Assembly: GCF_000026545.1 (NCBI RefSeq)
Contig: NC_011602.1
Length of the DNA stretch: 6,147 nt
Direction: 5' to 3' (one strand)
Origin: Escherichia coli O127:H6 str. E2348/69
Lineage (GTDB): Bacteria > Pseudomonadota > Gammaproteobacteria > Enterobacterales > Enterobacteriaceae
Under the pieces are notes generated by a model. It worked only from the letters and a program-made list of their open reading frames with translations. It made no database searches and was not told the origin of the DNA. Within the stretch, counting starts at the first letter, position 1; each line of letters starts with the position of its first letter. Below, one piece after another: positions 3,187 to 5,955 of the stretch. A program made the position numbers and the translations under genes.

Positions 3187-3202
3187 CTGTGTTTACATAC
3201 AG
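3187..3202. promoter_or_regulatory. LexA (SOS) box-like palindrome CTGTGTTTACATACAG (CTGT-N8-ACAG)
   Basis: Perfect CTGT-N8-ACAG with an AT-rich spacer, flanked TA...T as in the E. coli consensus TACTGT-N8-ACAGTA. It lies about 20 bp upstream of the transposase-fragment start codon on the minus strand, and about 19 of 21 bases match the second LexA box at 3651-3666. Function unproven. Confidence 0.45.
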
Positions 3203-3210
3203 TCTATCGC

Positions 3211-3600
3211 TTAGCGGAAAGTTCTTTTACCCTCAGCCGAAATGCCTGCCGTTGCTAGACATTGCCAGCCAGTGCCCGTCACTCCCACTCTTACATTGTT
3301 CGCAGTATCTAGGTACATGTTATTGCGTGCACCTTCATGATGTATAATGTTATTAATGACAGCAGAAAGATCGACAGAATTAATATTCTTCGTACCTGGG
3401 ACAGTTATCGGGTGTCGGCCAGTGATGAGACCAAAGGATGCAGTATAAGATGAACCACTACTATTATCATGGCCACCATTACCACCACCGTTAAAACTAC
3501 CTCCCGAACTTCCAGAGCCGCTATGACCATCATTGTAGGGGTCATTTGGTCCCATGTGACCAAAACCACCGACAGTACCGCTATTTAACTCTGTACTCAT
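3211..3600 (-). CDS. Glycine/serine-rich 129-aa protein of unknown function; colicin-like disordered N-terminus; SOS-box promoter
   Basis: ATG at complement of 3598-3600 with a strong RBS AGAGGA (3608-3613) 7 nt upstream. Product MSTELNSGTVGGFGHMGPNDPYNDGHSGSGSSGGSFNGGGNGGHDNSSGSS... followed by about 70 less biased residues. The ORF track starts the frame 11 codons upstream (3633), but the RBS supports 3600. The coding call is supported mainly by the RBS and promoter architecture; the product class is not established. Confidence 0.55.
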   Translation of the reverse strand: MSTELNSGTVGGFGHMGPNDPYNDGHSGSGSSGGSFNGGGNGGHDNSSGSSYTASFGLITGRHPITVPGTKNINSVDLSAVINNIIHHEGARNNMYLDTANNVRVGVTGTGWQCLATAGISAEGKRTFR

Positions 3601-3636
3601 AAAATTATCCTCTTTGACTTTTAAAAACAGCAAAAA

Positions 3637-3666
3637 CTGTATTTATAACAATGTGTTTATATACAG
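3637..3666 (-). promoter_or_regulatory. Tandem overlapping LexA boxes (colicin-type SOS operator)
   Basis: The plus strand reads CTGTATTTATAACAATGTGTTTATATACAG: box 1 at 3637-3652 (CTGT-N8-CAAT, degenerate inner half) and box 2 at 3651-3666 (ATGT-N8-ACAG), overlapping by 2 bp. This resembles the overlapping dual SOS boxes of colicin operons and sits between a candidate -10 and the RBS of the glycine-rich ORF. Confidence 0.65.
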
Positions 3667-3674
3667 TATTCGAA

Positions 3675-3704
3675 ATACTACGCCCGTCAAAACCACACCG
3701 TCAA
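3675..3704 (-). promoter_or_regulatory. Candidate sigma70 promoter for the glycine-rich ORF
   Basis: On the minus strand: -35 TTGACG (3699-3704), 18-bp spacer, -10 TAGTAT (3675-3680), immediately upstream of the LexA boxes. An alternative -35 TTGACG at 3685-3690 with -10 TACTGT would overlap box 2. Sequence-based only. Confidence 0.4.
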
Positions 3705-3817: not shown

Positions 3818-4258
3818 ATGGCATGGCACACAGTTCAAGAGACACTGAAATTAACAGGAAAGTCGCGCTCGCAATTATATCGTGACATGGCTAAAGGCCT
3901 TGTCAGCTATCGCACAGGAAAAAATGATCGCCGGGAGTTCGAGACCAGTGAACTGATTCGGGCCTATGGCGAGCTGCGCACTTCTGAGACACCAAAAAGG
4001 CACAAGGAGGGACACTCCAAATCTGTCGTTAGCCAGGCGGAAAATGCTCAGCTAGACGTCATTCAGCAGAAACTGGACGCTCTGCAGCAGACTGTTACCC
4101 TAATGCTTGAAGACAAGATGGCGCGGGAAGCAGAAAACCGCCTGCGAAATGAGGAGAGGGAACAACTACAGGCCGAAATTAGCCGTCTGGCTGACGCGCT
4201 GGCACAGGAAAAAAAGCGGGGATTCTGGTCGCGGCTGTTTCGCTCCGGTTCAGAGTAA
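3818..4258 (+). CDS. Putative helix-turn-helix DNA-binding protein with C-terminal coiled coil (146 aa; function unknown)
   Basis: ORF with stop TAA at 4256-4258. The preferred start is ATG 3818 (MAWHTVQETLKLTGKSRSQLYRDMAKGLV...), preceded by AGGAG at 3799-3803 (14-nt spacing, longer than ideal) and an extended -10 TGtTACAAT at 3778-3787. An alternative in-frame ATG at 3770 gives 162 aa. The N-terminus looks like an AlpA/excisionase/MerR-like HTH; the C-terminal roughly 70 aa are heptad-like and rich in charged residues and Gln/Leu (...LDALQQTVTLMLEDKMAREAENRLRNEEREQLQAEISRLADALAQEKK) with a basic amphipathic tail. Confidence 0.55.
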   Translation: MAWHTVQETLKLTGKSRSQLYRDMAKGLVSYRTGKNDRREFETSELIRAYGELRTSETPKRHKEGHSKSVVSQAENAQLDVIQQKLDALQQTVTLMLEDKMAREAENRLRNEEREQLQAEISRLADALAQEKKRGFWSRLFRSGSE

Positions 4259-4852
4259 CAGTGCAGGTGACTCTGATTTACCATAACATCTGTTATCAGC
4301 ACCGCCTGAGAGGCCCTCAGGGCGTTTCTGACGGGAAACCGGTAAAACAGGCAACAAACCACCCGAAAACCCGCCAGAAACGCGCAGGCTCTGTTTTTAC
4401 GGCATGCATGAGTATGCGCACAAGTGCATAGCGCGGAAATTCACACCATTCAGCCGGGGTAAGTCCTGTTTCCGGCGTTCTTCCCATCCGAAAACGGTGA
4501 ACGGGGACGCAATTTATTGCGTGGCCGTGAAGCGTTGCCGGCGCAGCCGGAAAACCCGCTGTCAGCACGTTCAGGAAGGGGGTGATGTACAAATGGCACA
4601 GAGGATGAAAGTGACGTATGAGCTGAAGGAGCGATGTAATTCTGTAGTCAGGAAGAATAACCCGTTCATGCAGGCATGAACGATACAGTGAGGAACGCTT
4701 TTTTTGTCACGATCTCCCCTTAACCTGCGTAAATCACCCGCCATGGTTGATTATTTTTCAACCTCAAAATGGTCATACACCTAACGCAGCCGCGATTTTC
4801 ATCGCAACTGCATGAATTAAAAGAAAAAAAAGGAATATTTCGTTTTCACGAG

Positions 4853-4926
4853 TAATACCCGGGTATTAAAAATCCACTGTAATTACATGAAAATAAAGAA
4901 ATAAAAGGTAATACCGGAGTATTACC
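4853..4926. repeat. Cluster of related palindromes: TAATAC-N4-GTATTA twice, plus TGTAATTACA
   Basis: P1 at 4853-4868 is TAATACCCGGGTATTA, a perfect 16-bp palindrome. P2 at 4907-4926 is GGTAATACCGGAGTATTACC, 8-bp arms around CGGA. Both share half-sites TAATAC / GTATTA separated by 4 bp, with centres about 56 bp apart. P3 at 4878-4887 is TGTAATTACA, a perfect 10-bp palindrome in the AT-rich spacer. On the minus strand P2 is followed by TTTTATTTCTTTATTT and so may also act as an intrinsic terminator for the 4950-5099 ORF. Confidence 0.5.
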
Positions 4927-4949: not shown

Positions 4950-5099
4950 CTATAACGCTTCCCGGCCGACAGGCGACCCAAAATCCACAGGGGCATGCAG
5001 GTTCTCTTCAGTAACCTGCGCCATTAAATCAAAAAGGTCATATTCGCCGGGAAGCTGCGTATCAGTCGAATCCAGTTGTTCATCATATTCAGATGGCAT
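4950..5099 (-). CDS. Hypothetical small acidic protein (49 aa), next to bom/oriT
   Basis: Hand-translated minus-strand ORF, absent from the ORF track (probably below its length cutoff): MPSEYDEQLDSTDTQLPGEYDLFDLMAQVTEENLHAPVDFGSPVGREAL. ATG at complement of 5097-5099, stop at 4950-4952. No clear Shine-Dalgarno. The terminator-like hairpin P2 with a T-run lies 23 nt downstream. Coding status is uncertain. Confidence 0.25.
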   Translation of the reverse strand: MPSEYDEQLDSTDTQLPGEYDLFDLMAQVTEENLHAPVDFGSPVGREAL

Positions 5100-5125: not shown

Positions 5126-5200
5126 TGTTAGCGGGTTTCGGGGCGCAGCCCTGAACCAGTCATGTAGCGCTAGCGGAGTGTATACTGGCTTACTATGTTG
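5126..5200 (+). other. ColE1-type bom/oriT (basis of mobility) site
   Basis: ...CGGGGCGCAGCCCTGAACCAGTCATGTAGCGCTAGCGGAGTGTATACTGGCTTACTATG closely resembles the pBR322/ColE1 bom region as recalled (GGGGCGCAGCCATGACCCAGTCACGTAGCGATAGCGGAGTGTATACTGGCTTAACTATG). The nick is expected near the conserved TATACTGGCTTA motif (5181-5192). No cognate mob/mbe relaxase gene is present in the window. Confidence 0.6.
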
Positions 5201-5399
5201 CCACGATTGCGAAAATCAGTGAAGTGCTTCATGTGGCAGGAGAAAAAAGGCAGCACCGGCGCGTCAGCAGAATATGCGATACAGGAGATATTCCGCTTCC
5301 TCGCTCACTGACTCGCTACGCTCGGTCGTTCGGCTGCGGCGAGCGGTACCGGCTTACGGACGGGGACGGAAATTTCCTGGAAGATACCAGGAAGACACT

Positions 5400-5470: not shown

Positions 5471-5955
5471 AATCTGACGCTCAAATCAGTGGTGGCGAAA
5501 CCCGACAGGACTATAAAGATCCCAGGCGTTTCCCCCTGGTAGCTCCCTCGTGCGCTCTCCTGTTCCTGCCTTTCGGTTTACCGGTGTCATTCCGCTGTTA
5601 TGGCCGCGGTTTCTCATTCCACGCCTGACACTCAGTTCCGTGAAGGCAGTTCGCTCCAAGCTGGACTGTATGCACGAACCCCCCGTTCAGTCCGACCGCT
5701 GCGCCTTGTCCGGTAACTATCAACTTGAGTCCAACCCGGAAAGACACGACAAAACGCCACTGGCAGCAGCCATTAGTAACAGGAGTGCACGAGAAGATAG
5801 ATTAAGAGGTCTTGAAGTAGAGGCCTGACTGCGGCTACACTGAAAGAACAGTTTTGGTAATGGCGGTCTCGTGAACCCTGTTACCGGGTTAAGCAGTTCC
5901 CCAACTGACTTAACCTTCGAACAAACCGCCTCCCCAGGCGGTTTTTTCGTTTACA
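5432..5955 (-). ncRNA. RNA II pre-primer transcript (approximate extent)
   Basis: Minus-strand promoter with -35 TTGAGA (complement of 5986-5991), 17-bp spacer, -10 TAATCT (complement of 5963-5968). The transcribed region is collinear with the p15A RNA II region as recalled, with many substitutions. Ends are approximate. Confidence 0.6.
5848..5947 (+). ncRNA. RNA I antisense copy-number control RNA (approximate extent)
   Basis: Plus-strand promoter with -35 TTGAAG (5812-5817), 18-bp spacer, -10 TACACT (5836-5841), and a start near ACAGTTTTGG as in ColE1 RNA I. It ends at an intrinsic terminator, CCGCC-TCCCCA-GGCGG plus T7 (5925-5947). It is antisense to the 5' end of RNA II. Confidence 0.6.

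What the first reader, a model, noticed from the sequence alone, without database searches (positions are those of the whole stretch)
4853..4926. Operator-like palindrome pair sharing TAATAC-N4-GTATTA half-sites, plus a TGTAATTACA palindrome
Two palindromes about 56 bp apart (roughly five helical turns) share identical 6-bp half-sites with 4-bp spacers, and a third perfect 10-bp palindrome lies between them in an AT-rich tract. Shared half-sites point to recognition by a dimeric DNA-binding protein (operator, partition or resolution site) rather than independent hairpins. Only P2 has a downstream T-run and so also looks like a terminator for the 4950-5099 ORF. No annotated gene explains the sites.
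Basis: seen in the sequence. Interest (0 to 1): 0.5.

Follow-up and report, generated by a model that had tools for sequence, protein, structure and literature searches.

The report
Conserved twin hairpins beside plasmid origin
Two short AT-rich palindromes in a common sulfonamide/streptomycin-resistance mini-plasmid are real and conserved, but they behave like base-paired hairpins at the end of a transcription unit (probably a terminator) and not like a repressor's operator or a recombination site.

Summary
P1 (4852-4869) and P2 (4907-4926) share 7-nt arms, GTAATAC/GTATTAC, which no shuffle reproduced. The 10-bp palindrome TGTAATTACA is a chance feature of this lineage.

The window is a p9123/pCERC1-type ColE1/p15A-like plasmid. 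In more than 100 distinct relatives the arms never vary, while the loops change in sequence and in length (4-5 nt). The P2 closing pair covaries (G:C, T:A, A:T). A second lineage of about 195 rop-carrying plasmids flips the central pair in all four arms. Two loop positions of P2 covary with two of P1, and wobble pairs favour the minus strand.

P2 lies directly 3' of whichever minus-strand gene is adjacent: a MazE-fragment ORF here, rop or truncated rop elsewhere. In this lineage an invariant U-rich tract follows it.

The pair persists in 1.7-2 kb plasmids with no annotated DNA-binding protein gene. It is absent from chromosomes as a dispersed repeat. The true Xer site is at 4276-4303.

Best reading: a structured 3'-end/terminator module on the minus-strand transcript. 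P2 is the terminator hairpin. P1 is its conserved partner, and its role is not settled. The operator, partition and resolution readings are not supported. Interest is modest.

The parts
4907..4926 (-). P2: hairpin GGUAAUAC-UCCG-GUAUUACC on the minus-strand transcript. It is the terminator-like stem-loop lying 23 nt 3' of the ORF49 stop codon.
   Evidence: The arms are invariant in relatives and the 8th pair covaries G:C / U:A / A:U. It abuts the rop stop codon, or a truncated rop, in other plasmids.
4886..4906 (-). U-rich tract (UUUUAUUUCUUUAUUUUCAUG on the minus strand) directly after P2. The core CATGAAAATAAAGAAATAA is invariant.
   Evidence: invariant in 44 type-A relatives. The motif CTTWATTTTCAT sits 8 nt after P2 in both lineages (read from the sequences).
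4852..4869 (-). P1: second palindrome, GTAATAC-CCGG-GTATTAA. It has a 6-bp perfect stem here and 7-9 bp in most relatives. No adjacent U-run.
   Evidence: 13 of 14 arm positions are invariant in 45 type-A sequences, whereas 19 of 20 left-flank positions vary. Loops seen: CCGG, CCAG, GCAAC, GCAAG, ACAAC, GCAA, GCGA.
4852..4925 (-). Composite long hairpin. The outer helix pairs 4852-4860 with 4917-4925. The inner helix pairs P1's right arm with P2's left arm. This fold is an alternative to the two local hairpins.
   Evidence: It is the minimum-free-energy fold of the minus-strand RNA and the RNAalifold consensus. The loop-loop pairs covary: CG 19, GC 18, GU 5, UG 1; and CG 21, GC 14, GU 4, UG 3. 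In L020 the stem is continuous and fully paired, about 24 bp, at -44 kcal/mol.
4879..4888 (.). TGTAATTACA: a 10-bp palindrome specific to this lineage. It is not a functional unit.
   Evidence: It is not palindromic in most relatives.
4817..4851 (.). A-rich tract plus a variable spacer to the left of P1. On the minus strand it reads as a U-rich run (CCUUUUUUUUCUUUU) starting 17-20 nt after P1.
   Evidence: This is the least conserved stretch of the backbone.
4950..5099 (-). ORF49: a 49-codon remnant of a MazE-type antitoxin, comprising the C-terminal toxin-binding half only. It is the upstream transcription unit for P2.
   Evidence: Coding constraint is weak: 92 synonymous against 212 non-synonymous codon differences. 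The p9123 family is said to carry a 'MazE TA system' in PMC6807383.
4767..4822 (.). Conserved island 'X', with a small hairpin GCGAT-TTTC-ATCGC. It is the constant left-hand neighbour of the twin hairpins in both lineages.
   Evidence: 777 plasmid records. A different hairpin occupies the same place in L251.

Best explanation
P1 and P2 act as base-paired hairpins in single-stranded nucleic acid of minus-strand polarity, not as double-stranded protein sites. The most likely job is a 3'-end/terminator module for transcription that arrives from the ori/oriT side: read-through of primer RNA II and whatever gene sits next to it, ORF49 here and rop in other plasmids.

Proposed mechanism. RNA polymerase travelling leftwards transcribes P2 first. 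The 8-bp stem GGUAAUAC/GUAUUACC folds, and the adjacent UUUUAUUU tract releases the transcript near 4897-4905. Transcripts that read through also acquire P1. P1 pairs with P2 into a long composite hairpin. In the rop lineage this long hairpin is itself followed by a U-run. It would act as a second block or as a stabiliser of the 3' end.

Shown: the hairpins exist and are conserved; covariation supports both the local and the long-range helices; P2 sits just 3' of the adjacent minus-strand gene, directly at the stop codon of rop or truncated rop and 23 nt past the ORF49 stop codon here; and in this lineage a U-tract follows it.

Inferred: that termination actually occurs there, and what P1 contributes.
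For: - Arms are invariant while loops vary in sequence and length across 22 unbiased and 97 pattern-retrieved distinct relatives.
- Compensatory change: the central pair is flipped A:U to U:A in all four arms of the rop-linked lineage.
- The 8th pair of P2 occurs as G:C, U:A and A:U. The covariation score is 0.167 against 0.058 in shuffles, reached by 0 of 500.
- Two loop positions of P2 pair with two of P1 in about 88-90% of sequences, with CG/GC swaps. RNAalifold picks this helix.
- Wobble pairs favour the minus strand: about 7 events are G.U on the minus strand and 2 are G.U on the plus strand.
- P2 is terminator-like on the minus strand only, at -10.8 kcal/mol.
- The tract after P2 is invariant in 44 relatives.
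- P2 lies 23 nt past the ORF49 stop codon, directly at the stop codon of full-length rop, and contains the stop codon of an 18-codon truncated rop.
- RNA I is at 5849-5950 on the plus strand, so RNA II and replication run leftwards, towards the element.
- The element is kept in 1.7-2.0 kb plasmids with no annotated DNA-binding protein gene.
Against: - The P2 stem is AT-rich and weak in most type-A relatives: 7 bp, 2 G:C pairs, -5.8 kcal/mol. The scan calls it a terminator only in the window's lineage.
- In the rop lineage no U-run follows P2 directly. A U-run comes only 3 nt after the long composite stem.
- P1 has no adjacent U-run on either strand, yet it is as conserved as P2. Termination at P2 alone does not explain it.
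- No sigma-70-like promoter for ORF49 was found, and ORF49 is barely constrained as a protein.
- With very few exceptions, every copy keeps the heptamer GTAWTAC in all four arms, and even a degraded copy (L251) retains it at most arms. A purely structural element would be expected to show more arm variety.
- There are no transcript-end data.
Confidence: 0.45

Rival explanations
1. Sites for a DNA-binding protein. A host-encoded factor, or in some plasmids a plasmid-encoded one, recognises the heptamer GTAWTAC. That heptamer is itself a 7-bp palindrome and is present four times. The protein would organise or regulate this AT-rich region as an operator or architectural site.
For: - All four heptamers are invariant apart from the central W in more than 100 distinct relatives.
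- The degraded copy L251 keeps heptamers even where hairpin complementarity is lost: GTATTAC-CCAG-GTATTAC.
- Both palindromes always carry the same variant within one plasmid.
- In one relative, P1 fills the spacer of a 10/12 sigma-70-like promoter, TTGTCA-18-TACAAT.
Against: - The half-site spacing changes from 4 to 5 nt, and to 12 nt in L251.
- Positions outside the heptamers covary as base pairs, including G.U wobbles that mean nothing in duplex DNA.
- No DNA-binding protein gene co-occurs. The element is present in 1.7-2 kb plasmids with no annotated DNA-binding protein gene, and there is no motif copy near the HTH gene.
- Relatives of the HTH protein sit next to a different repeated motif, ACTACAG.
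- The promoter-like hexamers are not conserved; for example, 11 sequences have TACAAC.
Confidence: 0.17
2. A single-stranded-DNA signal. The hairpins extrude on the lagging-strand template during vegetative replication, or on transferred DNA. There they serve as a priming or primosome-assembly (ssi/pas-type) site, or as a fork-pausing site.
For: - The hairpin structure is supported by covariation, with a bias towards the minus strand, which is the lagging-strand template for the leftward fork.
- The element lies 0.5 kb downstream of ori and is retained in minimal plasmids.
- Factor-Y/PriA sites of pBR322 are hairpins near rop (my own recollection, not checked here).
Against: - A stretch matching the classical ColE1 lagging-strand pas motif (GAAGCGG, at about 5293-5299 on the minus strand; read by eye and compared from memory) already exists nearer ori.
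- Most plasmids of the rop lineage are typed non-mobilizable (166 of 195), which argues against a conjugation role.
- Rearranged plasmids lack the element (L006, L253), so it is dispensable.
- The conserved CTG of type A is absent from type B.
Confidence: 0.12
3. A relic or recombination junction with no present function. The element would be an inverted duplication left by rearrangements between rop, mazE and cer modules. It would be kept uniform by template-switching between quasi-palindromes and by the recent spread of these plasmids.
For: - Homology breakpoints coincide with the right edge of P2, at window 4925, in truncated-rop plasmids.
- The backbone is a mosaic with several junctions, at 4608-4641 and at 5010.
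- ORF49 is itself a gene fragment.
- The element is dispensable in L006 and L253.
Against: - The arms are invariant while the immediately adjacent flank varies at 19 of 20 positions, in sequences down to 82% backbone identity.
- Two diverged lineages both preserve the architecture with compensatory changes.
- It is not a dispersed mobile element: 289 of 299 E. coli copies are on plasmids and in the same context.
Confidence: 0.12

Closest known systems
Rho-independent (intrinsic) terminators, including tandem or long-stem terminators at operon ends
   Same: A stem-loop is followed by a U-rich tract on the transcribed strand. It lies just 3' of the stop codon. The stem is conserved by pairing while the loop is free to vary.
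   Different: The stem is unusually AT-rich and short in most relatives. A second, equally conserved hairpin with the same arms lies 40 nt further on without its own U-run. The two can refold into one long hairpin. No experimental 3' end is known.
ColE1 cer and other Xer multimer-resolution sites
   Same: Both are cis-acting non-coding elements of small ColE1-type plasmids, in a region rich in A-tracts.
   Different: P1 and P2 have no XerC/XerD arm similarity. A canonical core, GGTGCTGATAA-CAGATG-TTATGGTAAAT, lies at 4276-4303.
Operators of dimeric HTH repressors
   Same: Dyad symmetry, two copies about five helical turns apart, in AT-rich DNA.
   Different: The spacing is variable. There is covariation outside the half-sites. 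No cognate protein co-occurs. There is no consistent overlap with a promoter.
pSC101 par locus and REP/BIME-type structured repeats (from general knowledge)
   Same: They are protein-free cis elements made of inverted repeats next to a plasmid origin or gene ends. They are thought to act through structure, affecting mRNA 3' stability or gyrase binding.
   Different: There is no sequence similarity. This element is single-copy and plasmid-specific, not a dispersed family.
pBR322/ColE1 factor-Y (PriA) primosome assembly hairpins (from general knowledge)
   Same: They are hairpins downstream of ori, near rop, that act in single-stranded DNA.
   Different: The AAGCGG-type motif is not conserved at the element. 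A better pas-like stretch lies nearer ori. This was not testable here.

Membership tests
Intrinsic (Rho-independent) terminator | Stable stem-loop on the transcribed strand | tested here: met
   P2 on the minus strand has 8 bp at -10.8 kcal/mol, z = -3.6. In most relatives it has only 7 bp at -5.8 kcal/mol.
Intrinsic (Rho-independent) terminator | U-rich tract within 0-2 nt of the stem | tested here: inconclusive
   Met for P2 in the window and throughout type A (UUUUAUUU; invariant). Not met for P1. In type B a U-run follows only the long composite stem, after 3 nt.
Intrinsic (Rho-independent) terminator | Lies at the 3' end of a transcription unit on the same strand | tested here: met
   It lies 23 nt after the ORF49 stop codon, directly at the rop stop codon in type B, and overlaps the stop codon of truncated rop in L003 and L004. 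It is downstream of RNA II read-through.
Intrinsic (Rho-independent) terminator | Transcripts end there | not testable with these tools
   No transcript data were available.
Operator of a dimeric DNA-binding protein | Half-sites at fixed spacing | tested here: not met
   The P1 spacer is 4 or 5 nt. A degraded copy has 12 nt. The arms are unchanged throughout.
Operator of a dimeric DNA-binding protein | A cognate regulator is encoded with it, or the site overlaps the regulator's promoter | tested here: not met
   The element is present in 1.7-2.0 kb plasmids with no annotated DNA-binding protein gene. There is no motif near the 3818-4258 gene. Promoter overlap is seen in only one lineage.
Xer (cer-type) multimer-resolution site | 11-bp XerC arm, 6-8 bp centre, 11-bp XerD arm (TTATGNTAAAT) | tested here: not met
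   The pattern matches once in the window, at 4276-4303 on the minus strand, not at P1 or P2.
Serine-resolvase res site or partition centromere | Adjacent resolvase or ParB/ParR gene, and iterated binding sites | tested here: not met
   No such gene is in the window.
Dispersed mobile mini-element (MITE / PATE / REP) | Many copies in varied genomic contexts | tested here: not met
   289 of 299 E. coli copies are on plasmids, with a median of one per genome. All 294 motif hits in the held loci lie in the same context. No relative has an empty site.
Single-strand initiation / primosome assembly site | Hairpin in single-stranded DNA that supports priming | not testable with these tools
   The structure is present and biased to the minus strand. 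Priming activity cannot be computed.

The most novel reading that the evidence does not exclude
The twin palindromes are a dedicated cis-acting structured element of this plasmid backbone. It would be a two-state RNA or single-stranded-DNA fold: two local hairpins, or one long hairpin presenting an invariant AU-rich loop. It would control something beyond simple termination, for example processing or stability of origin-derived transcripts, coupling of RNA II read-through to expression of downstream rop or mrs functions, or recruitment of a host factor that recognises GTAWTAC. If so, it would be a maintenance determinant of very widespread resistance mini-plasmids that I found described in none of the papers I could search.
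Probability: 0.15. Interest if true: 0.55.

Novelty: new member of a known kind. Interest (0 to 1): 0.3.

Why it matters
This backbone carries sul2-strAB (the p9123, pCERC1 and Shigella sonnei spA plasmids), qnrB19 and other resistance genes. It is found in about 700-780 sequenced plasmids of Escherichia, Klebsiella, Salmonella and Shigella. Small non-coding determinants of the behaviour of these plasmids are almost unannotated.

Three practical points follow. The element is structural, not an operator, so nobody should go looking for a repressor that probably does not exist. It marks a clean module boundary that is useful for annotating mosaic ColE1-type plasmids. And it gives a cheap, testable candidate terminator or insulator between the replication/transfer region and the multimer-resolution region.

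If P1 turns out to have a role of its own, the element would be a small new example of a two-state plasmid RNA or single-stranded-DNA structure.

Tried and rejected
- **Xer/cer site at P1 or P2.** Rejected. The arms do not fit, and the canonical core is at 4276-4303.
- **Operator for the 3818-4258 HTH protein.** No extra motif copy was found. Homologous HTH genes sit after rop, next to ACTACAG repeats, not next to GTAWTAC.
- **Plus-strand promoter with P1 in its spacer.** It scores 10/12 in one relative, but the hexamers are not conserved and none is called in the window.
- **Mini-ORF MKIKK (4887-4904).** There is no Shine-Dalgarno sequence and the ORF is trivially short. I did not pursue it.
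- **Known RNA family.** Rfam finds only RNA I in the window, and nothing in L003, L004 or L005.
- **Mobile mini-element or invertible segment.** There are no dispersed copies, no inverted-middle variants among 97 sequences, and no empty sites.
- **Extended flank pairing in the rop lineage.** The evidence is mixed: some changes are compensated and many are not.
- **Genome-contig scan with an anchor from island X.** It returned mostly chance hits and only about 8 relevant contigs. This was a poor use of that scan.
- **Viral-contig scans.** Uninformative.
- **Literature.** Searches found no description of these hairpins. The pCERC1 paper (Anantham and Hall 2012), the pCERC7 paper and Tran et al. 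2012 are either not in the held library or were not retrieved.

Full report
**What the window is**

The 6147-base window is essentially identical to E. coli plasmid p6148. It belongs to the p9123 / pCERC1 / Shigella spA family of small ColE1/p15A-type plasmids.

Its layout is as follows:
- sul2, strA and strB occupy roughly 141-2656.
- A glycine-rich truncated ORF lies at 3211-3633 on the minus strand.
- An HTH gene lies at 3818-4258.
- A canonical Xer core, GGTGCTGATAA-CAGATG-TTATGGTAAAT, lies at 4276-4303 on the minus strand.
- A ColE1-type bom/oriT-like stretch lies near 5130-5200. I identified it by eye against the pBR322 sequence from memory.
- RNA I lies at 5849-5950 on the plus strand.

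Primer RNA II, and therefore replication, run leftwards on the minus strand, towards the finding.

**Check of the observation**

The shared arm is 7 nt long. GTAATAC occurs at 4852 and 4908, and GTATTAC at 4919. P1's right arm is GTATTAA.

No shuffle out of 300 produced two neighbouring hairpins that share an arm. GTAWTAC occurs four times against 0.3 expected.

**Comparative evidence**

The 411-bp surroundings occur in 692 plasmid records. The conserved island to the left of the element occurs in 777.

I collected three sets of relatives:
- 22 distinct sequences chosen without reference to the palindromes.
- 97 more from a metagenome scan anchored on the middle tract and on P2.
- 44 full-length backbones that are 82-100% identical to the window.

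These give five results.

1. *Invariant arms, free loops.* The arms of both palindromes never vary. The loops vary freely. P1 loops are CCGG, CCAG, GCAAC, GCAAG, ACAAC, GCAA and GCGA, so the loop is 4 or 5 nt long. P2 loops are CGGA, CGGC, CGGG, CACC, CAGC and CTAC. Next to P1, 19 of 20 flank positions vary, against 1 of 14 arm positions.
2. *A second lineage with a flipped pair.* 'Type B' comprises 195 plasmid records, including pIP843. It has the same architecture, but every arm carries the central pair flipped: GTATTAC...GTAATAC. Among intact copies, type A arms are never mixed with type B arms.
3. *A covarying closing pair.* The pair closing P2 occurs as G:C, U:A and A:U. The covariation score is 0.167 against 0.058 in shuffles, reached by 0 of 500.
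4. *The middle palindrome is not conserved.* TGTAATTACA is not a palindrome in most relatives. The adjacent CATGAAAATAAAGAAATAA, however, is invariant.
5. *Loop-to-loop covariation.* The first two loop bases of P2 pair with the last two loop bases of P1 in about 88-90% of sequences, with CG/GC exchanges and G.U wobbles. RNAalifold chooses this long-range helix. It is also the minimum-free-energy fold of the minus-strand RNA. In L020 the two palindromes form a continuous, fully paired stem of about 24 bp at -44 kcal/mol.

Wobble pairs are legal on the minus strand in about 7 events and on the plus strand in 2. This is suggestive, with P about 0.09.

**Context**

P2 always lies at the 3' end of the adjacent minus-strand gene:
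- In the window that gene is ORF49, and P2 starts 23 nt past its stop codon.
- In type B it is full-length rop.
- In the 1.7-2.0 kb plasmids L003 and L004 it is an 18-codon truncated rop, whose stop codon lies inside P2.

ORF49 is the C-terminal, toxin-binding half of a MazE-type antitoxin. One survey lists the p9123 plasmid family as carrying a 'MazE TA system' (PMC6807383). Its coding constraint is weak: 92 synonymous against 212 non-synonymous codon differences.

On the minus strand P2 is terminator-like, with a tail of UUUUAUUU. No terminator-like configuration exists on the plus strand.

**What the element is not**

- It is not the multimer-resolution site. That site is at 4276-4303.
- It is not a dispersed repeat. 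289 of 299 E. coli copies are on plasmids, and all are in this context.
- It is not tied to any DNA-binding protein gene. The tiny plasmids that keep it have no annotated DNA-binding protein gene.
- No third copy of the motif lies near the HTH gene.
- Homologues of the HTH protein in other plasmids (25% identity) follow rop and sit beside a different repeat, ACTACAG.
- It is not essential. Rearranged plasmids lack it (L006 and L253).
- A conjugation role is unlikely. Most type-B plasmids are typed non-mobilizable.

**Interpretation**

The pattern is invariant arms, free loops of variable length, compensatory changes, and pairs that extend beyond the arms. That is the signature of a base-paired structure, not of a fixed-geometry protein site.

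Position and polarity point to the minus-strand transcript. I therefore read P2 as an intrinsic terminator or 3'-end hairpin for transcription coming from the ori side. I read P1 as its conserved partner. P1 refolds with P2 into a long hairpin. In type B that long hairpin is the structure followed by a U-run.

**Weak points**

- The stem is AT-rich, and in most relatives it falls below the scan's terminator criteria.
- P1 has no U-run of its own.
- With very few exceptions, the heptamer GTAWTAC is kept in every copy, and a degraded copy with a central mismatch retains it at most arms (L251). A host protein that recognises the heptamer therefore remains possible.
- I have no transcript data.
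- I found no published description of the element.

**Verdict**

The operator, partition and resolution interpretations are not supported.

The element is an unannotated but fairly ordinary kind of feature: a structured 3'-end module. The conservation of its second hairpin is unexplained. Interest is 0.3.

Noticed in passing
window 4276-4303 (minus strand), accessory region to about 4490: A canonical Xer recombination core, GGTGCTGATAA-CAGATG-TTATGGTAAAT. Its XerD arm equals that of ColE1 cer as I remember it. It lies directly after the stop codon of the HTH gene. This is the real multimer-resolution site of the plasmid.
   Followed up: partly
window 4950-5099 (minus strand): The 49-codon ORF is only the C-terminal, toxin-binding half of a MazE/AbrB-family antitoxin (PDB 7d2n_E, E = 0.001; 58% identity to plasmid MazE C-termini). 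It has no DNA-binding domain, no partner toxin gene and weak coding constraint. It could be an orphan anti-MazF peptide or a pseudogene. It is present in about 650 plasmids.
   Followed up: partly
window 4608-4641; L002 (pCERC1) about 2865-2909; L003 182-266: A unit of about 32-42 bp (AAAGTGACGTATGAGCTGAAGGAGCGATGTAA) is single-copy here, duplicated in pCERC1, and present at least twice in a 2-kb Klebsiella plasmid. Homology with rop-carrying plasmids begins exactly at its right edge (4641/4642), so it marks a recombination junction.
   Followed up: partly
window 4641-4649; L010 540-660 (minus strand); L003 310-360: The motif CTGTAGT(C) (ACTACAG on the other strand) occurs once here. It occurs 5-7 times upstream of the rop-HTH operon in relatives. 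It is a better candidate operator for the plasmid HTH family (NF038291-like) than P1/P2.
   Followed up: no
window 4662-4683 (minus strand): A second terminator-like hairpin, TCGTTCATGCCTGCATGAACGG, followed by a T-rich tail. It is conserved in relatives and sits at a deletion junction in pCIT-ce4a (L006).
   Followed up: no
window 4767-4822; L251 about 425-470: This is the most conserved non-coding island of the backbone. It contains the hairpin GCGAT-TTTC-ATCGC. In an IncR plasmid remnant the same position holds a different hairpin, AGCGTGAT-AA-ATCACGCT, which suggests a structural role.
   Followed up: no
window 3636-3680 and 3187-3202: LexA-box-like sequences. A pair of overlapping boxes (…CTGTATATAAACACATTGTTATAAATACAG…) lies upstream of the glycine-rich truncated ORF 3211-3633, in the style of a colicin promoter. 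A perfect CTGTGTTTACATACAG lies at 3187-3202, beside the CR2/ISCR2 remnant.
   Followed up: partly
L003 and L004 (whole plasmids, 2044 and 1697 bp): These tiny plasmids carry the Xer core, island X, the twin hairpins and a truncated rop. Rfam finds no RNA I in them, and they have no nucleotide similarity to the window's ori. Their replicon type is unclear.
   Followed up: no
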